Source of the DNA: Escherichia phage PSa2
Sequence record: OL770310
Reading direction: 5' to 3' (one strand)
Length of the DNA: 64,000 bases
A program made the position numbers and the translations under genes. Each line of letters opens with the position of its first letter. The first letter of the stretch is position 1. Positions 1,837-26,303 of this stretch are shown in pieces. A model generated the notes under the pieces. That model was not told the origin of the DNA, did not search any database, and worked only from the letters and a program-made list of their open reading frames with translations.

Positions 1837-3504
1837 TTATGCAAAGAATTTACCGTTTTTGAAATCAATCAAAGTACGTTGCCCGTTTGCATAGGTAATT
1901 AAATGCGTTTGCGTCCAGCTTGACGCGCCCACGTTGTAACCCATATCGAGACTACCAGCAACGCCAGCGGTATAAACGCCGCCGTAAATGCTAGCCGTAT
2001 GAGTATGACCAGTGTTAAGGCGTCCCAACTTTTTAAACTGCTTAGGATTGCCCCGACTGCCGTTAATGCCATTGTGACCATGTACGCCGCACTCAATTCC
2101 TGCAATCTTGAAAGATTGGTCAGTAGTCAGGAAAATAGCGTTAAATTCGCAACCTGCGACGTTCCGCAAGGCGTAATCTAGCACGTTAAAGGTATCATCC
2201 TTTTCAGCAATAGCGGCGTAAATCGCAGCGTTTAGACGGTGATACAATTCCGCGTTTGCGGGATCGTCTTTAATGTTAGCGTTACGATCATCAAGCCAGC
2301 GTGAAAGAGCTAAATCATGGTTAGATTCCACAATGATTGTTTGAGAGAAATCACGCTCCATAGACTCTAATACGCGGCCCGTATCGATAAGATCATCAAT
2401 AACTTTATCACGTCCGGCGGCGTATTGTTTAGCAAGGAATACACCACTTGCGCGGTTATGGTGATTGCGGGATGTAAAATCATGCACATCATGAATAAAT
2501 TGATATTTCGGTTTAAGAATATCAAGCAAGCTGTTTTCACTAGCCCATGAAGCGACGGCGCAATCATCATCTAGTTTTTCGGCGTGAATATCGCCATATT
2601 GCAAGCCTAGAACATGATCGGACGTTTCAAAACATCCGGTAGGCATAGCGCAAACATTCAAATCATAGAACATTCCGCTTTCATCCATTGTTTCAAGTTG
2701 GCGGCAATAAAATTCTCCGTCGTCGTCAAATTCTACCAGCAAAGCGCCGTAATTATGTAAAGCCTCGGCCTTTTGTCCTGCTTTCTGCTGAATGTAGTTT
2801 TTAAGCGTAGCCGTTCCGGTTGAATACATACGGCGCACTACTTCACCTTTTAACGCTGGTACACTTTCAGCGGTAATTTTTGCCGCACCAATTGCCAGAC
2901 CTTCAATATTTAAAGCCGTGGCGGTTTCTGCGAATCCTGTAAGCGGATAATCTGCCGTTGGTAATACGTTAATTTCAGACATGAAAGCAAAGCGGCGATT
3001 ATTCAGGAAAACATTTTTATCACAGATATATTTATCAAATGCGGGATCGTATTTAATTTTTTCTTTGCTGCCGTCGCCGTTCTGGAATCCATTTTTATTG
3101 TAAATGAATTTACTAACCAGCAATTCACCGCCGATATATTCAGCGAATTTTTCCAGACTTGCTAAAAAGTTTTTATGCGGGAAAGTATTATTTTGAATCG
3201 ACGTTAGAATAAAACGGCGACCGGATTTAACTTCCCATTGTTCCACGGTACTAGAAACAATCCCCGCCGCTTCGGGGCGATCATCATTTTTAATCGCCTT
3301 TTCAGCTTTTGCCGCTTTCGGTTTCGCTGGCTTGTTTGCTTCTAACCAGTCACAAATTGCGGTTGAATGTTTCGTTGTATCGTAAACAGCTTTTGAAATA
3401 TCGTCGCAAACTTCTAATTTAGTAGCGCGCAAACGCTTACCATAGAAATTAAAATCAGCGGCCATTTTCAGAATTTGAGCTTGTTTTTCTGCGGAAATAT
3501 TCAT
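1837..3504 (-). CDS. A1: A1-like pre-early protein with calcineurin-like metallophosphoesterase motifs
   Basis: 555-aa ORF; motifs LQYGDIHAEK, GHNGINGSRGN, GHTHT; size and position match T5 A1. Confidence 0.65.
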   Translation of the reverse strand: MNISAEKQAQILKMAADFNFYGKRLRATKLEVCDDISKAVYDTTKHSTAICDWLEANKPAKPKAAKAEKAIKNDDRPEAAGIVSSTVEQWEVKSGRRFILTSIQNNTFPHKNFLASLEKFAEYIGGELLVSKFIYNKNGFQNGDGSKEKIKYDPAFDKYICDKNVFLNNRRFAFMSEINVLPTADYPLTGFAETATALNIEGLAIGAAKITAESVPALKGEVVRRMYSTGTATLKNYIQQKAGQKAEALHNYGALLVEFDDDGEFYCRQLETMDESGMFYDLNVCAMPTGCFETSDHVLGLQYGDIHAEKLDDDCAVASWASENSLLDILKPKYQFIHDVHDFTSRNHHNRASGVFLAKQYAAGRDKVIDDLIDTGRVLESMERDFSQTIIVESNHDLALSRWLDDRNANIKDDPANAELYHRLNAAIYAAIAEKDDTFNVLDYALRNVAGCEFNAIFLTTDQSFKIAGIECGVHGHNGINGSRGNPKQFKKLGRLNTGHTHTASIYGGVYTAGVAGSLDMGYNVGASSWTQTHLITYANGQRTLIDFKNGKFFA

Positions 3505-3542
3505 AACTAATTCAACTCCTATAAAGGGATAAAGATTAAAGC

Positions 3543-3556
3543 TGGCAATATTGCCA
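3543..3556. promoter_or_regulatory. perfect 14-bp palindrome TGGCAATATTGCCA about 40 bp upstream of the A1-like start
   Basis: read directly; half sites TGGCAAT/ATTGCCA. Confidence 0.3.
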
Positions 3557-3613
3557 AATATAACGCCTTGCCTGAAGTGAGGACAATTTAAAAGGCGTTA
3601 TAATTTGCAACAT

Positions 3614-3838
3614 TTAATTAAGCGGCATTAAACTAGAACAAAAGCCAAATACAATGCCAATTGTAAGAAAGATAATTGACAGATATTTTTGAATGTTCGC
3701 GTTTTTGCGGAAATTATTTGCGGCGTAAACGTTATTAATTCCAATTATTGCCAGAATTGACCTCGTATAATTCAGAATAAAAGCGGCGGCAATAATAAAT
3801 AAACCTAAAATAAACGCTTCGCTAGGATAAAAGATCAA
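3614..3838 (-). CDS. small membrane protein (two hydrophobic segments)
   Basis: 74-aa ORF, hydrophobic stretches. Confidence 0.35.
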   Translation of the reverse strand: MIFYPSEAFILGLFIIAAAFILNYTRSILAIIGINNVYAANNFRKNANIQKYLSIIFLTIGIVFGFCSSLMPLN

Positions 3839-3858
3839 GATTATTCTCCTTTAAGGGT

Positions 3859-3880
3859 TAGCGGGGAATATTCCCCGCTA
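3859..3880. terminator. perfect 22-bp palindrome TAGCGGGGAATATTCCCCGCTA (hairpin, terminator-like)
   Basis: read directly; lies between two minus-strand ORFs; same arms as hairpin at 7308. Confidence 0.35.
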
Positions 3881-3888
3881 GTTAAAAT

Positions 3889-4305
3889 TTATTCACCTGC
3901 GGCCTGTTTTACTTCCTCCGCTACGCCTAACAATTGCGCTACAGCTTCCAGCGTTTCCAGTTTTGCACTTTCCAGACTTGCCAGATCGTCGGCGTCTTTA
4001 ATAACGCCGCTATCAATAGCGTGTTTAGCGATGACGCGCACATAGTGAGCTTTACGGACACTAGACCCGCCGCCAACTTTACGCGGTTTATCGCTTTTCT
4101 GGTATGCTTTTGCGCTTGTCAGTTTAGAACGTACAGAAACAGGACTTGCAGCGCCAACGGCGGCGGCAATTTCTTTCAGGCCGTCACTGTTAGCAAATTC
4201 AATTCCGCTTTTAGCGACCATTTCAGAATACATAGAAACAGCTTTTTCGGTGTTTTCTTCGTTCCAAGAGAATTTTGCGGTTTTTTCGGTTTTAACGTTA
4301 GACAT
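3889..4305 (-). CDS. hypothetical protein
   Basis: 138-aa ORF. Confidence 0.5.
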   Translation of the reverse strand: MSNVKTEKTAKFSWNEENTEKAVSMYSEMVAKSGIEFANSDGLKEIAAAVGAASPVSVRSKLTSAKAYQKSDKPRKVGGGSSVRKAHYVRVIAKHAIDSGVIKDADDLASLESAKLETLEAVAQLLGVAEEVKQAAGE

Positions 4306-20940: not shown

Positions 20941-21357
20941 TTAATGTGCTTGATGTGGGAATCTCTTCCTAACTAGGTACATTGTTATTGGATATATTGA
21001 ATACATAAGTATAGGGGAGAAAAGGGTGAAATAAGCCGTGACTCCCCCAGCTAACATCAGTGGTATCAATGCTAGAGTAAGGGCCATAAGAATCATACCG
21101 AATGAGACAGCCAGGGCTACTGTTATGCAGTTCTCTAACTCCATCCAAAGCCAACAATATTTCGTATTTCTCTGGCAGTTGCATTTGCAAACGCCGAATG
21201 TGCCCATAATTATATACTCTAGCCCATGAACGACTTTCTTTAATGTGTCATTTTGGGTAACTAGTGCGACAACCGTAAGAATTATCATTAAAATGAAAAC
21301 TACTAGGCTTATCTTCCATATTCCTAGTAACATCATGGTGAATAGTTCTGCAAACAT
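20941..21357 (-). CDS. membrane protein (lysis-associated candidate)
   Basis: 138-aa ORF with several hydrophobic segments, downstream of endolysin. Confidence 0.45.
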   Translation of the reverse strand: MFAELFTMMLLGIWKISLVVFILMIILTVVALVTQNDTLKKVVHGLEYIIMGTFGVCKCNCQRNTKYCWLWMELENCITVALAVSFGMILMALTLALIPLMLAGGVTAYFTLFSPILMYSIYPITMYLVRKRFPHQAH

Positions 21358-21432: not shown

Positions 21433-21846
21433 TCAGACTAATTCTACGTGACCACCGTCGTAAGTACCACGATCGATCTCATCATGATAATCACCAGAAC
21501 TATTCCAGTCGGCACCAAAACGAAGTTTGACACCAAGTTCCTTACCAGCTTGTTCAAAAGCCTTCTTAACAGCCCAAAATGCTTCCAGATCTTTCCAATC
21601 AATCTTACCATTAATATATGGTGCAAAATCGATAGCGTCTCCAGTTACATGCTTACTTTTGCTAGGGTCTTTCAAAAATGAAGTACCATTAGCAATGTTT
21701 TGGGCACTTTGTGCTACTGTACGAATACCTTGTACGATTGTGAAATCATATGGGGATAGTTCTAAAGCCCTACGAGCTACCTTTTGTAGCTCGGGCTTAA
21801 CAGTTGCTAATTGTTTTTCGCTATTTTTACCAAATTTAAAACTCAT
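21433..21846 (-). CDS. lys: endolysin, L-alanyl-D-glutamate peptidase (T5 Lys-like)
   Basis: 137-aa ORF; His/Asp zinc-peptidase residues; size and neighbourhood match T5 endolysin. Confidence 0.7.
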   Translation of the reverse strand: MSFKFGKNSEKQLATVKPELQKVARRALELSPYDFTIVQGIRTVAQSAQNIANGTSFLKDPSKSKHVTGDAIDFAPYINGKIDWKDLEAFWAVKKAFEQAGKELGVKLRFGADWNSSGDYHDEIDRGTYDGGHVELV

Positions 21847-22499
21847 ATAGATCTACCTAATGATCTTTGCTGCGGTGAGCAAAGCTTTGTTAAGTACTCC
21901 TTAAATTGTTCCGAGTCAGCTGTATCTACGGGTTTATCCTTCCAGGCAATACCTATGTATCCAGCATAGATATTATTTAGGTTGAAATACGGACAAGTAT
22001 AGACGTAATTAAAAGTAACGTTCTTAAACGCGGGTATATTTGACCCCATATATTTATTTACTTTTACACTTAAATCCGAAGCGTAGTTAAAGCCTTCCAG
22101 GTGACGTCTATAAAGTTCAGACGTCTTGTTTACTGCTTTATCGGCCAAGTCAGCCCTATCCAATTGCGCATTGCTTTCCCATGCAATAATGTTCGAATAA
22201 TCGTTTATAGCATCGGGTTTATACTTGACTACAAAAACAGCATCCGCACCCGTCTGAGAGAAAAGAACCATGCTCTTTTCTCGTGCTACATTAGGAAAGT
22301 TATCTATCCTTTGGGTTTGAACATCCTGTAAAACCGCAGACGTGGAGAAAGTCTTTAAAAATGACATCACCTCGCTAGTGTTACTTACAAACAAGAAAAT
22401 AATGACAGCAACTAAGATAGTTAGCAGACGTTTTAGTAGCGAAGCTGGATCTTTCGCTTCTTGGAGCAGTACCGTTAATAGTTGTAGAAACTTTTCCAC
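21843..22499 (-). CDS. holin candidate
   Basis: 218-aa ORF directly upstream of endolysin; TM segment LLTILVAVIIFLFV. Confidence 0.5.
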   Translation of the reverse strand: MEKFLQLLTVLLQEAKDPASLLKRLLTILVAVIIFLFVSNTSEVMSFLKTFSTSAVLQDVQTQRIDNFPNVAREKSMVLFSQTGADAVFVVKYKPDAINDYSNIIAWESNAQLDRADLADKAVNKTSELYRRHLEGFNYASDLSVKVNKYMGSNIPAFKNVTFNYVYTCPYFNLNNIYAGYIGIAWKDKPVDTADSEQFKEYLTKLCSPQQRSLGRSI

Positions 22500-22607
22500 T
22501 TGTAACCTCCTCTAACCATTACCATTATACTAATTCTAGAGGAAAATTACAACGTGTTTTTAAAGATCACTTCTGGAGCATAATTTTTTGTCGTTGTCAA
22601 GAAGAAT

Positions 22608-22647
22608 TTTAGGCAAAAGAAAAGCCAGAGTCGTTAAACTCTGGCTT
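22608..22647 (-). terminator. intrinsic terminator AGCCAGAGT-CGTTAA-ACTCTGGCT with U-rich tail
   Basis: read directly downstream of ClpP-like gene. Confidence 0.55.
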
Positions 22648-23267: not shown

Positions 23268-24020
23268 TTATCCAACTAGTGGTTCTAGCTCTAAGTCACA
23301 GAAGTGGTACACATCGGTACGAAGTGCATCAAGTCCGTTGAAGGTATTCTCAAATTTATGAGAAATGTATTTTTCAGGAATACCGCTTTCAGACGGATGA
23401 TCTGTCTCGATGCGATACTTATTAGTAATACCAGATTCAACCTTAATAAGCATGGAATCCATATCTAGAGTATTGGTTTCCATGATTAGCTCTCCCTCAT
23501 TGGGGAAACGCACATCGGTAACGATTGCGACGTCTGGGTCGTCTTTATCGATGGATTGCTCCAGAATTATGAGCCAAATGCGTTCATGCACCAGCTGCCT
23601 TCCTAACTCAGTACCTACAAGCTGTAGCATTTTTCTTGGGGAGATAAATACGCTATACAGCGCATCATCAGCTTGCCCAATTAACTGCTGAGGATCAAGG
23701 TATTTTCCTTCAAAAATCGGCCAAACGTACGAGAAGTCCTCAAACTTATCGATACCATACTTAAACCATACGTCTCTAGCTCGCTCCAATTGAGATTGTG
23801 TGACTGTAAACCATTGGTCAATCTCTTTTCCCCTGCGCTCTCCCAGAAACTCTGGAGTTACCCCGAGGATTACGGATGCAAGTTCGTAAACGGGTTTAGC
23901 AAAACTGTAACTACGGGATAAACACGTTGGGAACGTGTCATTACACCAGTCAATCATTAATTCTGCAACGGTATCTTTTCCCGCACCAGCCTCACCATGT
24001 AAACCGACTAATACTGACAT
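23268..24020 (-). CDS. dnk: deoxynucleoside monophosphate kinase
   Basis: 250-aa ORF; Walker A GEAGAGKDT. Confidence 0.55.
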   Translation of the reverse strand: MSVLVGLHGEAGAGKDTVAELMIDWCNDTFPTCLSRSYSFAKPVYELASVILGVTPEFLGERRGKEIDQWFTVTQSQLERARDVWFKYGIDKFEDFSYVWPIFEGKYLDPQQLIGQADDALYSVFISPRKMLQLVGTELGRQLVHERIWLIILEQSIDKDDPDVAIVTDVRFPNEGELIMETNTLDMDSMLIKVESGITNKYRIETDHPSESGIPEKYISHKFENTFNGLDALRTDVYHFCDLELEPLVG

Positions 24021-24373
24021 TAATCTTTCCTATTTGTAATGGGTGGATAGTAAACTAAGCAACGTTTTTCTTGTAAATCTTGACGATAGAAGCAAACCAT
24101 ACCGGTCAGTCGTGAAATGTAAGAGTAAACTGCTTCCTCGCATTTTGCTTTTGCATTCCAATCTTTGTAAGGTACAACAACTACTACGCCATCTTCACCA
24201 TTTGTAGCTAATTTCTTTTCGAATTTGAAATCAAAGCTACACGGCTGAAGTCCTTTAGGCCAGTCAACATGAGCTTGTTTTAACTCATGGGATGGCTCCG
24301 GTTTTATTTCTTCTGCACAGCCTGTGATTGTGATTGCGGCTGCGAGCAGTACTCCAAGTTTCCAGTTAAACAC
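24020..24373 (-). CDS. lipoprotein (o-spanin candidate)
   Basis: 117-aa ORF; signal peptide with lipobox ITGC; 5' end overlaps 3' end of 24304-24753. Confidence 0.45.
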   Translation of the reverse strand: MFNWKLGVLLAAAITITGCAEEIKPEPSHELKQAHVDWPKGLQPCSFDFKFEKKLATNGEDGVVVVVPYKDWNAKAKCEEAVYSYISRLTGMVCFYRQDLQEKRCLVYYPPITNRKD

Positions 24374-24753
24374 GCTAATCTTTCCTCGAACTCTTTATTC
24401 TGCTTTTTAGCAATTAATGTTACCAATCCAGGCTTTGCAGCGATAACATCTTGACGACTAAGAGCTTTATCTAACTGCTTAATCTTTTTGTCTAGATCTG
24501 CTTGCGAAATATTATTCATTGTGAAATACTGGTTCATTCGAGTCTCACGAAGTTCACTCTCAGTTTTCACTTTATTAAGATAAGTCTCTAGAGTGGAGAT
24601 CTTTTTAGTCGCAACTGCAAGATCTCCCGCTAAAGTTTCAACCTTATTTACTAAATGATAAGCACCGAATCCGATACCTATCGCAAGACCAGCTCCCAGG
24701 ATATACCACTTACCTTGCCATATTCCTGAAAGAAGTTTTTGTATCAAATCCAT
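24304..24753 (-). CDS. N-terminal TM plus coiled-coil protein (i-spanin candidate)
   Basis: 149-aa ORF; TM helix YILGAGLAIGIGFGAY then helical region. Confidence 0.45.
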   Translation of the reverse strand: MDLIQKLLSGIWQGKWYILGAGLAIGIGFGAYHLVNKVETLAGDLAVATKKISTLETYLNKVKTESELRETRMNQYFTMNNISQADLDKKIKQLDKALSRQDVIAAKPGLVTLIAKKQNKEFEERLACLTGNLEYCSQPQSQSQAVQKK

Positions 24754-25408
24754 GTGCTGCTAACCTGTCTTTATCTGATACGGTAATCATATCAGGCTCA
24801 CCAGTTCCTAGTACACCGAAGATATACTGTTCGAGAACTTGGTGTAAACGGTATAAGTTACTTTCAATTTCCTGCCACGGAATACCTGACTGATGGAAAC
24901 GAATGTTTGTCTGAATTACGAAGTTACGAATATCATCGTTATCGTTCTTCTTAATACCTTTCACATATGCAATTGGTACGCGCAGTTCAGATAAGATACG
25001 TTCTGCTTTAGGTTTTGCTTCAACCAACATATCTCGCATGGTTTCACGAACATCACCACGATTCTTGTCTAGTAAGTAAGAACGGGCATGTAATCCCATT
25101 TCTTCCATTTTATCAAATACAGCATCGATGTTGAACGTTTTGAAACTGAATGCCGGATGCCAGCAGGACAGCTCATGTAACCAGTAAACTTCACCTGCAA
25201 TAAACAGCGGATTTACTGAGTATTCGAAATCACCACGGAAGGATAAGGAACCTTCACGAAACACCTGACGATTATGAACAATATTCTTTTCTACATCGTC
25301 GGTTACTTTTACTAGCAGCTCTTCAGTTTTACGCTCCCAGACACGATCTGGATCAAATAAACTATTCTGCAAATCGTATACATCATTGAACTTTGAAATG
25401 ATTCTCAT
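24710..25408 (-). CDS. hypothetical protein
   Basis: 232-aa ORF. Confidence 0.55.
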   Translation of the reverse strand: MRIISKFNDVYDLQNSLFDPDRVWERKTEELLVKVTDDVEKNIVHNRQVFREGSLSFRGDFEYSVNPLFIAGEVYWLHELSCWHPAFSFKTFNIDAVFDKMEEMGLHARSYLLDKNRGDVRETMRDMLVEAKPKAERILSELRVPIAYVKGIKKNDNDDIRNFVIQTNIRFHQSGIPWQEIESNLYRLHQVLEQYIFGVLGTGEPDMITVSDKDRLAAHGFDTKTSFRNMAR

Positions 25409-25437: not shown

Positions 25438-25468
25438 ATATTATATAATACTTGTGGCGTCTGAGCAA
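25438..25468 (-). promoter_or_regulatory. sigma70 early promoter
   Basis: promoter family motif. Confidence 0.45.
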
Positions 25469-25554
25469 CTGAAATTTTATTACAAAAAATAGCCCAGCCT
25501 GCAATTTTGCGACTGGGCTTTGTCATTATTATTCTTGCTAGGAGGTGATTATCA

Positions 25555-25944
25555 TCACTCTTGTTTACTTAATTCTCTAGCACGACGTAGCGATCCAGCG
25601 GTTCTCCATAGTTTAATGTCGTCAATAACTTCTTTGTAAGGAGCAATAGTAAGACCTAGCGGTCCTGCTACCAACAGTCCAAAGAAACCAATTACACGCA
25701 TGTATAGCAAGCATTCTTTGGGAGTCATTGACTGGACAGCCTGCCTTTCCTCATCACTGTCGAACTCGTATTCTTGATCGTCTAAACGTAGGTACTTAAT
25801 AAACCATTCAGCAGAATATTCATCCAGATGACTAATAACTGCAATAGCATAGCCTAAACCAATAATAAACCATGCTGCTACAATGAATAAAATAAAGCTC
25901 ATGATATCTCCAGTTAAAGTTGAGGTCCGCGACCAACTCACCAC
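25555..25944 (-). CDS. membrane protein
   Basis: 129-aa ORF. Confidence 0.5.
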   Translation of the reverse strand: MVSWSRTSTLTGDIMSFILFIVAAWFIIGLGYAIAVISHLDEYSAEWFIKYLRLDDQEYEFDSDEERQAVQSMTPKECLLYMRVIGFFGLLVAGPLGLTIAPYKEVIDDIKLWRTAGSLRRARELSKQE

Positions 25945-26018
25945 TTACCGCACTAAGGGGCACGACTCCCTTATCCGTAACAGTTGCAGGTGACGCAACT
26001 CGGTCCTACGCGAGTTCT

Positions 26019-26303
26019 TTACTTGCTCTGCATTTCAGCACGGAATTTTTTCATCTTACGAGTTTTACGGAAGAAGAAATAAGTAGCTACTGGCCCGAAC
26101 AAGGTGTCCATAATAAGCATACCTGACATGATGAATTTGAACATCTTTTCATCGTCAAATTCTGCTAATTCTGGTGGACGATATTTGTTTATAACATAAA
26201 GAATAACATCTTTATTTTTAGAGATATACAGATCATCAATCAGACTGTAAATCGCGACAACTGCACCAATAACAAACCACAAAGCAAATGGAGAGATAAT
26301 CAT
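26019..26303 (-). CDS. membrane protein
   Basis: 94-aa ORF. Confidence 0.45.
   Translation of the reverse strand: MIISPFALWFVIGAVVAIYSLIDDLYISKNKDVILYVINKYRPPELAEFDDEKMFKFIMSGMLIMDTLFGPVATYFFFRKTRKMKKFRAEMQSK

What the first reader, a model, noticed from the sequence alone, without database searches (positions are those of the whole stretch)
24020..24753. Spanin-like overlapping gene pair located away from the holin-endolysin cassette
ORF 24304-24753 has an N-terminal TM helix followed by a coiled-coil region; ORF 24020-24373 starts inside its 3' end in another frame and encodes a lipoprotein (lipobox ITGC). This matches the classic i-spanin/o-spanin overlap, yet it sits about 2 kb from the endolysin and next to the dNMP kinase gene.
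Basis: inference. Interest (0 to 1): 0.4.

Follow-up and report, generated by a model that had tools for sequence, protein, structure and literature searches.

The report
Known T5-type spanin gene pair
These two overlapping genes are the already catalogued outer-membrane-disrupting "spanin" pair of T5-like phages, and their position about 2 kb from the holin and endolysin genes is the normal layout for this phage family.

Summary
ORF 24304-24753(-) encodes a 149-aa protein with one N-terminal membrane helix and a helical, heptad-patterned periplasmic part. ORF 24020-24373(-) starts 70 nt before its stop codon, in another frame, and encodes a 117-aa lipoprotein precursor (lipobox ITGC, Cys19, Ala at +2).

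The spanin interpretation is also correct, but it is not new. The window is an Epseptimavirus closest to phage EPS7. RefSeq annotates both genes as "Rz-like spanin", and other records call them i-spanin and o-spanin. Kongari et al. 2018 list EPS7 by name in the "T5 family" of overlapped spanins, with a 70-bp overlap in T5.

Both proteins are homologous to T4 PseT.3 and PseT.2, which were shown experimentally to replace lambda Rz/Rz1. They fall in the same PHROG families, and the two essential C-terminal cysteines of PseT.2 are conserved.

The separation from holin-endolysin is not an anomaly. The order i-spanin, o-spanin, dNMP kinase, Clp-like protease, terminator plus promoter, holin, endolysin is conserved in all 33 T5-like loci examined. 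T4 spanins are also unlinked from its holin and endolysin.

I found no direct lysis experiment on a T5-type spanin. Already known; low interest.

The parts
24304..24753 (-). i-spanin gene (149 aa; homologue of T5 T5.045 and T4 PseT.3)
   Evidence: ORF. Hits phrog_739 'Rz-like spanin' at 1.9e-37. Annotated as spanin in NC_010583 and MZ501076. BLASTP to T4 PseT.3 gives 6e-06.
24649..24705 (-). Codons 17-35 of the i-spanin: the single N-terminal transmembrane helix (YILGAGLAIGIGFGAYHLV)
   Evidence: Kyte-Doolittle 19-residue maximum of 1.55 at residues 17-35. Helical in the AF2 model.
24517..24648 (-). Codons 36-79 of the i-spanin: periplasmic helix with coiled-coil heptad pattern
   Evidence: Hydrophobic occupancy is 0.83 at a/d positions against 0.22 elsewhere, reached by 1 of 2000 shuffles. 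The AF2 model has a continuous helix over residues 3-79 (low confidence).
24020..24373 (-). o-spanin gene (117-aa precursor, 99-aa mature lipoprotein; homologue of T5 T5.044 and T4 PseT.2)
   Evidence: ORF. Hits phrog_812 at 4.2e-30. BLASTP to T4 PseT.2 gives 2e-07 and to PEi26 PseT.2 gives 3e-11. Annotated as o-spanin.
24317..24328 (-). Lipobox ITGC (codons 16-19). Cys19 is the acylated first residue of the mature protein, and Ala at +2 predicts outer-membrane sorting.
   Evidence: PROSITE-type lipobox match at residues 9-19. The lipobox cysteine is conserved in all 34 relatives examined, including the T4-like phage.
24304..24373 (-). 70-nt out-of-frame overlap. It encodes the i-spanin C-terminal tail (with CX7C) and the o-spanin signal peptide.
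   Evidence: The same 70-nt overlap occurs in 29 T5-like loci, 88 nt in Sugarlandvirus, and three loci have a separated layout. T5 is reported to overlap by 70 bp (PMC6139136).
24383..24387 (-). GAGGA Shine-Dalgarno sequence, 9 nt upstream of the o-spanin GTG start, inside the i-spanin gene
   Evidence: Read directly from the sequence.
25440..25468 (-). Sigma-70-like promoter (TTGCTC, 17 nt, TATAAT) upstream of ORF 24710-25408. Likely start of the transcription unit that holds the spanins.
   Evidence: Aligns with the promoter annotated in T5 upstream of T5.047. Inferred, not shown.
22614..22647 (-). Intrinsic terminator after the Clp-like protease gene. It separates the spanin/dnk/clp unit from holin-endolysin.
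   Evidence: 11-bp stem followed by a T-run. Folding energy -16.0 kcal/mol. Aligns with the terminator annotated in T5.
22524..22600 (-). Promoter region of the holin-endolysin unit (TTGACA... and TTGTAA, 17 nt, TATAAT)
   Evidence: 10 of 12 consensus match. Conserved with the T5 promoter annotated upstream of the holin gene.
21843..22499 (-). Holin (218 aa, T-holin family). Functional partner, in a separate transcription unit.
   Evidence: PF11031 at 1e-114. phrog_860.
21433..21846 (-). Endolysin (137 aa, M15 peptidase, T5 Lys type). Functional partner.
   Evidence: PF13539 at 8.6e-06. phrog_465 at 4.8e-54.

Best explanation
The pair is the two-component spanin of a T5-like phage (genus Epseptimavirus, closest to EPS7). 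It belongs to the T5 spanin family, which is homologous to T4 PseT.3/PseT.2.

The 149-aa product is a type II inner-membrane protein. Its helical, partly coiled-coil periplasmic domain reaches across the periplasm. The 117-aa product is processed at Cys19 and lipidated, and because it has Ala rather than Asp at +2 it is sorted to the inner leaflet of the outer membrane. The two C-terminal regions bind each other, giving complexes that span the periplasm through the peptidoglycan mesh.

When the T-type holin releases the M15 endolysin and the wall is degraded, the complexes are free to move and change shape. They then fuse or disrupt the inner and outer membranes, which completes lysis.

- **Shown here:** ORFs, membrane and lipoprotein signals, overlap, conservation, homology.
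- **Shown by others for the T4 homologues:** complementation of lambda Rz/Rz1, and the requirement for the two C-terminal cysteines.
- **Inferred for this phage:** topology, complex formation, membrane fusion, and the transcription unit shared with dnk and clp.
For: - ORFs and signals.
- PHROG spanin families 739 and 812 are hit by the window proteins and by T4 PseT.3 and PseT.2.
- Pairwise homology to T4 and PEi26 PseT.3/PseT.2.
- Family alignment shows the conserved HxxWP motif, the C-x-YR-x-x-L-x-E-x-x-C motif in the o-spanin (Cys94 and Cys105, spacing 11 as in T4 Cys87 and Cys98) and the D-V-x-A-x-KP-x-L motif in the i-spanin.
- Public annotation as spanins, and the T5 record's notes of similarity to PseT.2 and PseT.3.
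- EPS7 is listed in the T5 i- and o-spanin families with overlapped architecture. T4 PseT.3/PseT.2 complement the lambda RzamRz1am lysis defect, and their Cys-to-Ser mutants are defective (PMC6139136).
- Lipobox, cysteines, gene order and overlap are conserved in 33 T5-like loci.
- AF2 secondary structure: the i-spanin is almost all helix; the o-spanin has a disordered linker followed by strand-strand-helix-strand-strand, similar to the organisation described for PseT.2.
Against: - I found no direct genetic or biochemical test of a T5-type spanin in the searchable literature.
- Neither protein matches a Pfam or NCBIfam spanin model.
- Identity to the T4 proteins is only 27-32%.
- The structure models were made from single sequences and have low confidence (pLDDT 62 and 54).
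- Charge bias around the membrane helix is weak, so N-in topology rests mainly on homology.
Confidence: 0.93

Rival explanations
1. The lipoprotein is a superinfection-exclusion or receptor-blocking lipoprotein of the T5 Llp or Cor type. On this reading it masks the phage receptor after infection, and the upstream membrane protein is unrelated to it.
For: T5-like phages do encode such a lipoprotein (llp, T5.158). The mature protein here is fairly large (99 aa) and has four cysteines, so it looks like a folded, disulfide-bonded domain.
Against: BLASTP finds no alignment with T5 Llp even at E up to 100. Homology is instead to T4 PseT.2. The gene is always coupled to the PseT.3-like membrane protein and usually overlaps it. 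Llp lies next to the receptor-binding protein gene, not here.
Confidence: 0.02
2. The 117-codon frame is a chance open frame overlapping the real 149-aa gene, and the gap down to dnk is non-coding.
For: The start codon is GTG, and several public records leave the ORF unannotated or call it 'hypothetical'.
Against: A GAGGA ribosome-binding site lies at 9-nt spacing. The frame stays open with the same start position, lipobox and five cysteines in all relatives, including phages at 46% identity and T4-like phages where the gene stands alone. It hits phrog_812 at 4.2e-30. Frames of this length are rare in the window, 73 of 7989.
Confidence: 0.01
3. The pair are true PseT.3/PseT.2 homologues but have another envelope function in T5-like phages, for example early envelope remodelling. 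This would explain why they sit in an operon with nucleotide-metabolism and protease genes rather than with the lysis genes.
For: They share a likely transcription unit with dnk and a Clp-like protease, bounded by a terminator before the holin promoter. No experiment on T5-type spanins was found.
Against: T4 PseT.3/PseT.2 are likewise unlinked from the T4 holin and endolysin genes and still act as spanins (PMC6139136). No other spanin candidate is annotated in these phages. Spanins are held inactive by the intact cell wall until the endolysin acts (lambda model, established knowledge), so transcription apart from the lysis genes need not be harmful. Expression timing was not examined here.
Confidence: 0.04

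Closest known systems
T5 family of two-component spanins (T5 T5.045/T5.044; SpaninDataBase of Kongari et al. 2018)
   Same: Same genes. Identity to T5 is about 90% (i-spanin) and 91% (o-spanin). The 70-nt overlap, the lipobox TITGC, the cysteine pattern and the neighbours (dnk downstream; holin and endolysin about 2 kb away) are the same. EPS7 is named as a member.
   Different: Nothing of substance. The o-spanin starts with GTG here where most relatives have ATG. The i-spanin N-terminus differs by two residues in length. T5 has an HNH endonuclease gene (hegF) inserted upstream of the i-spanin that is absent here.
Phage T4 PseT.3 (i-spanin) / PseT.2 (o-spanin)
   Same: Homologous over most of their length and in the same PHROG families. 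The HxxWP and C-x10-C motifs of the o-spanin and the KPxL motif of the i-spanin are conserved. Both pairs are unlinked from holin and endolysin, and in both phages the holin is of the T type.
   Different: The T4 genes count as 'separated'; here they overlap by 70 nt. The i-spanin here has a roughly 25-residue C-terminal extension with a CX7C pair, whereas PseT.3 has no cysteine. The o-spanin here has two further cysteines (Cys45, Cys78) and a C-terminal tail. Identity is only 27-32%.
Lambda Rz/Rz1
   Same: Same functional class and topology: a type II inner-membrane protein with coiled coil plus an outer-membrane lipoprotein. The lambda pair can be functionally replaced by the T4 homologues (PMC6139136).
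   Different: No detectable sequence similarity, with no Pfam Rz or Rz1 hit. Rz1 is fully embedded in Rz, short, proline-rich and unstructured. Here the genes only overlap, and the o-spanin is predicted to have a folded strand/helix domain. Lambda's genes sit in the lysis cassette.

Membership tests
Two-component spanin (i-spanin/o-spanin) | i-spanin: a single N-terminal transmembrane domain with the bulk of the protein periplasmic (type II), and a helical or coiled-coil periplasmic domain | tested here: met
   There is one hydrophobic segment, at residues 17-35. Heptad periodicity covers residues 36-79. The AF2 model is mostly helical. Orientation itself is inferred from homology, since the charge bias is weak.
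Two-component spanin (i-spanin/o-spanin) | o-spanin: a lipoprotein signal peptide with a lipobox cysteine and no Lol-avoidance Asp at +2 | tested here: met
   LLAAAITITGC matches the PROSITE-type pattern. Cys19 is followed by Ala-Glu. The feature is conserved in all relatives.
Two-component spanin (i-spanin/o-spanin) | Gene pair in the order i then o on the same strand, in embedded, overlapped or separated architecture | tested here: met
   Overlapped architecture with 70 nt shared and different frames.
Two-component spanin (i-spanin/o-spanin) | Periplasmic cysteines available for intermolecular disulfide bonds | tested here: met
   The i-spanin has Cys128 and Cys136. The mature o-spanin has Cys45, Cys78, Cys94 and Cys105. 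Whether the bonds actually form was not tested.
Two-component spanin (i-spanin/o-spanin) | Required for outer-membrane disruption: a lysis block in the presence of Mg2+ when mutated, or complementation of lambda RzamRz1am | not testable with these tools
   Shown only for the T4 homologues (PMC6139136). I found no T5-family experiment.
T5 spanin family / T4 PseT.3-PseT.2 superfamily (PHROG 739 and 812) | Significant sequence similarity of both subunits to family members | tested here: met
   Hits to phrog_739 at 1.9e-37 and phrog_812 at 4.2e-30. Identity to T5 is about 90%. BLASTP to T4 gives 6e-06 and 2e-07. EPS7 is listed in the family.
T5 spanin family / T4 PseT.3-PseT.2 superfamily (PHROG 739 and 812) | The two C-terminal o-spanin cysteines, 11 residues apart, that are essential in T4 PseT.2 | tested here: met
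   Cys94 and Cys105 align with T4 Cys87 and Cys98. Their essentiality in T4 comes from PMC6139136.
Lambda Rz/Rz1 sequence families (Pfam Rz, Rz1) | Match to the Pfam models | tested here: not met
   Neither protein has a Pfam hit above noise. It works like Rz/Rz1 but does not belong to those sequence families.
Llp/Cor superinfection-exclusion lipoproteins | Sequence similarity to T5 Llp, and location next to the receptor-binding protein gene | tested here: not met
   No BLASTP alignment. Llp lies beside oad in T5.

The most novel reading that the evidence does not exclude
T5-type spanins may use a covalent architecture different from both studied models. The i-spanin carries a conserved C-terminal CX7C tail, encoded exactly in the 70-nt overlap. 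The o-spanin carries two cysteines (Cys45, Cys78) beyond the T4-type pair, giving six periplasmic cysteines in all. This would allow heterotypic i-o disulfides, or an intramolecularly stapled o-spanin domain. Neither has been described for lambda (homotypic links in both subunits) or T4 (o-spanin only). The tail is kept even where a homing endonuclease has split the genes apart.
Probability: 0.2. Interest if true: 0.25.

Novelty: already known. Interest (0 to 1): 0.07.

Why it matters
It matters little beyond correct annotation. The pair completes the lysis gene set of this phage: T-type holin, M15 endolysin and spanin. It also shows that T5-like and T4-like phages share homologous holin and spanin modules while using different endolysins.

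Many deposited T5-like genomes still label one or both genes 'hypothetical', or put the i-spanin label on the o-spanin gene. The practical value is therefore annotation clean-up.

A direct lysis test of a T5-type spanin appears to be missing from the open literature. It would be a routine experiment, not a surprising one.

Tried and rejected
- **Pfam and NCBIfam scans:** no meaningful hit for either protein. Only PHROGs recognises them.
- **PDB sequence search:** nothing below E = 0.1. There is no solved relative.
- **Single-sequence AlphaFold2 models:** low confidence (pLDDT 62 and 54). I used them for secondary structure only and ran no fold search on them.
- **Viral-contig scan with the o-spanin:** returned only close relatives at 86-100% identity. 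Divergent members came from tblastn against GenBank phages instead.
- **Literature searches for T5.044/T5.045 or T5 spanin experiments:** found none.
- **Llp-like lipoprotein hypothesis:** rejected, as there is no similarity.
- **Large protein-database searches:** not run (search for homologous proteins, the search of protein representatives). The identity of the pair was already settled, and the cost was not justified.

Full report
**Observation**

The minus strand holds an ATG-initiated ORF at 24304-24753 (149 aa) and a GTG-initiated ORF at 24020-24373 (117 aa). They share 70 nt (24304-24373) in different frames. The GTG has a GAGGA Shine-Dalgarno sequence 9 nt upstream, inside the first gene.

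The 149-aa protein has one hydrophobic segment. Its Kyte-Doolittle maximum is at residues 17-35 (YILGAGLAIGIGFGAYHLV). The following segment, residues 36-79, shows strong heptad periodicity: hydrophobic residues fill 83% of a/d positions against 22% elsewhere, and 1 of 2000 shuffles reaches that contrast. A single-sequence AlphaFold2 model has low confidence (pLDDT 62) but is almost entirely helical, with helices at 3-79, 84-101 and 108-129.

The 117-aa protein starts MFNWKLGVLLAAAITITGC. This fits the PROSITE-type lipobox pattern with Cys19, has Lys5 in the n-region, and is followed by Ala-Glu, so there is no Lol-avoidance Asp. The 99-aa mature part has four further cysteines (45, 78, 94, 105). 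It is predicted, with low confidence (pLDDT 54), as a disordered linker followed by strand-strand-helix-strand-strand.

The endolysin (21433-21846, M15 peptidase) ends 2174 nt from the pair. The dNMP kinase gene (23268-24020) abuts the o-spanin stop codon.

**Source of the window**

The region is 99.9% identical to Escherichia phage EPS7 (NC_010583/CP000917). A 20-kb stretch around it is 98.3% identical to the same phage. EPS7 is a T5-like siphophage (Demerecviridae, Markadamsvirinae, Epseptimavirus).

**What the pair is**

- **Protein families.** Both proteins hit PHROG lysis families named 'Rz-like spanin': phrog_739 at 1.9e-37 and phrog_812 at 4.2e-30. Pfam and NCBIfam have no model for them.
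- **Public annotation.** The RefSeq EPS7 record annotates the same two ORFs (AGC_0048, AGC_0047) as Rz-like spanins. The BASEL-collection phage IrmaTschudi calls them i-spanin and o-spanin at the same positions.
- **T5.** The orthologues are T5.045 and T5.044. They carry the original annotators' notes of similarity to T4 and RB69 PseT.2 and PseT.3.
- **Literature.** Kongari et al. 2018 (PMC6139136) list EPS7 by name in the 'T5' i-spanin and o-spanin families. They class it as overlapped and state that the T5 spanins overlap by 70 bp. That is exactly the overlap found here.

**Relation to the experimentally studied T4 spanins**

T4 PseT.3 and PseT.2 fall into the same two PHROGs, at 1.3e-37 and 5e-42. 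Pairwise BLASTP gives these E-values:

| Window protein | T4 homologue | T4-like Edwardsiella phage PEi26 homologue |
|---|---|---|
| i-spanin | 6e-06 (PseT.3) | 3e-08 (PseT.3) |
| o-spanin | 2e-07 (PseT.2) | 3e-11 (PseT.2) |

The family alignment shows three conserved motifs:

- an HxxWP motif after the o-spanin linker;
- a C-x-YR-x-x-L-x-E-x-x-C motif near the o-spanin C-terminus;
- a D-V-x-A-x-KP-x-L motif in the i-spanin.

The two cysteines of the C-terminal motif are Cys94 and Cys105 here. They align with T4 Cys87 and Cys98, with the same 11-residue spacing.

According to PMC6139136, pseT.3 and pseT.2 complement the lambda RzamRz1am lysis defect, and both cysteines are essential. So the window's pair is homologous to a spanin with direct functional evidence, although T5-family members themselves seem untested.

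**Conservation**

tblastn finds the o-spanin in 554 phage records and the i-spanin in 541. These are almost all T5-like phages of Salmonella, Escherichia, Klebsiella, Proteus, Providencia and Pectobacterium, with weak hits in T4-like phages.

I examined 33 T5-like loci (T5, EPS7, IrmaTschudi, Klebsiella phage Shiner and 28 IMG/VR contigs), plus the T4-like phage PEi26 for comparison:

- The lipobox cysteine is present in every one, PEi26 included.
- The four periplasmic o-spanin cysteines and the CX7C pair in the i-spanin tail are present in every T5-like locus. PEi26 has only the C-terminal cysteine pair in its o-spanin and none in its i-spanin.
- The overlap is 70 nt in 29 loci and 88 nt in the Sugarlandvirus Shiner, which is only 39-46% identical.
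- Three loci have the separated, Shivani-type layout with a 666-nt gap. The literature attributes that layout in Shivani and phiR201 to an inserted GIY-YIG homing endonuclease gene; I did not check the content of the gap in these three loci.

**The location is not an anomaly**

All 33 T5-like loci have the order i-spanin, o-spanin, dNMP kinase, holin, endolysin, and the annotated records (T5, EPS7, IrmaTschudi, Shiner) place a Clp-like protease gene between dnk and holin. The T5 record annotates a terminator and a promoter between the protease and holin genes, and a terminator plus promoter upstream of T5.047. All four elements align with the window:

| Element | Window coordinates (minus strand) | Detail |
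|---|---|---|
| Upstream terminator | 25483-25521 | hairpin, -19.8 kcal/mol |
| Promoter before ORF 24710-25408 | 25440-25468 | TTGCTC, 17 nt, TATAAT |
| Terminator after the Clp-like protease gene | 22614-22647 | 11-bp stem plus T-run, -16.0 kcal/mol |
| Promoters before the holin gene | 22524-22600 | TTGACA...; TTGTAA, 17 nt, TATAAT |

The likely transcription unit is therefore ORF232, i-spanin, o-spanin, dnk, clp. Holin and endolysin form a separate unit directly downstream. This is inferred from conserved signals, not shown.

[quoted passage not shown] 8 legend). The holin here is also of the T4 T-holin family (PF11031, 1e-114).

**Mechanism**

The best-supported mechanism is the established spanin model.

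1. The i-spanin is anchored in the inner membrane and extends a coiled coil into the periplasm.
2. The o-spanin is lipid-anchored in the inner leaflet of the outer membrane.
3. Their C-terminal regions bind, stabilised by disulfide bonds, and the complexes are caged by the peptidoglycan.
4. Once the holin releases the endolysin and the wall is degraded, the complexes fuse or disrupt the two membranes.

The sequence features and homology are shown here. Topology, complex formation and the fusion step are inferred for this phage. I put confidence in this explanation at 0.93.

**Rival explanations**

- **Llp/Cor-type exclusion lipoprotein.** Excluded, because there is no similarity to T5 Llp and the protein is homologous to PseT.2.
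- **Chance open frame.** Excluded by the ribosome-binding site, the conservation and the PHROG score. Only 73 of 7989 stop-to-stop frames in the window are this long.
- **A non-lysis envelope role.** Cannot be excluded without experiments, but nothing supports it.

**Differences from T4**

The i-spanin has a roughly 25-residue C-terminal extension with two cysteines, where PseT.3 has none. This extension is encoded in the overlap. The o-spanin has two extra cysteines and a short C-terminal tail. That gives six periplasmic cysteines, an uncommon count in the published survey (16 of 526 pairs). The most novel reading left open is a different disulfide architecture. It is speculative and of modest interest.

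**Verdict**

The feature is already known and catalogued for this very phage, and the 'unusual' location is the family norm. Interest is low.

Noticed in passing
window 21433-22499 (-), compared with L001 (NC_010583) 2203-3321: The RefSeq EPS7 record annotates a truncated endolysin (243 nt) and holin (429 nt). The window has an intact 137-aa endolysin and an intact 218-aa holin. The two sequences differ by 3 indels over 1121 nt, so either the deposited record has frameshift errors or the window comes from a different, closely related isolate (98.3% identity over 20 kb).
   Followed up: partly
window ~23839 (-), inside the dNMP kinase gene 23268-24020: T5 annotates one of its 'major single-chain interruptions' (nick consensus Pu-pGCGC) inside dnk. 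That sequence context is conserved here (GGGAGAGCGCAGGGG), which suggests that this phage has the same site-specific nick.
   Followed up: partly
window 24710-25408 (-): A 232-aa ORF of unknown function (phrog_4243, E 2.7e-115) overlaps the i-spanin start by 44 nt and is the first gene of the likely spanin/dnk/clp operon. In T5 the HNH endonuclease gene hegF is inserted between it and the i-spanin. Some records label this ORF 'DNA polymerase III epsilon', with no support from Pfam.
   Followed up: no
window 24371-24373 (-); loci L001-L035: The o-spanin start codon is GTG in the window, in EPS7 and in about a quarter of relatives, and ATG in the rest, always at the same position. Many GenBank records leave the o-spanin unannotated or place the 'i-spanin' label on it.
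   Followed up: partly
L031, L032, L033 (IMG/VR T5-like contigs), ~3310-4001: In three relatives the i-spanin and o-spanin genes are separated by a 666-nt gap (Shivani-type layout). The published explanation for that layout in Shivani and phiR201 is an inserted GIY-YIG homing endonuclease; I did not check the content of the gap in these loci. The i-spanin there is 141 aa, keeps its CX7C pair and has a new C-terminal end.
   Followed up: partly
window 25555-26303 (-) and 20941-21357 (-): Several small ORFs near the lysis genes encode proteins predicted to lie in the membrane, for example 129 aa at 25555-25944, 94 aa at 26019-26303 and 138 aa at 20941-21357. T5 annotates the counterparts of the first two (T5.048, T5.049) as having two transmembrane domains. 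Their function is unknown.
   Followed up: no
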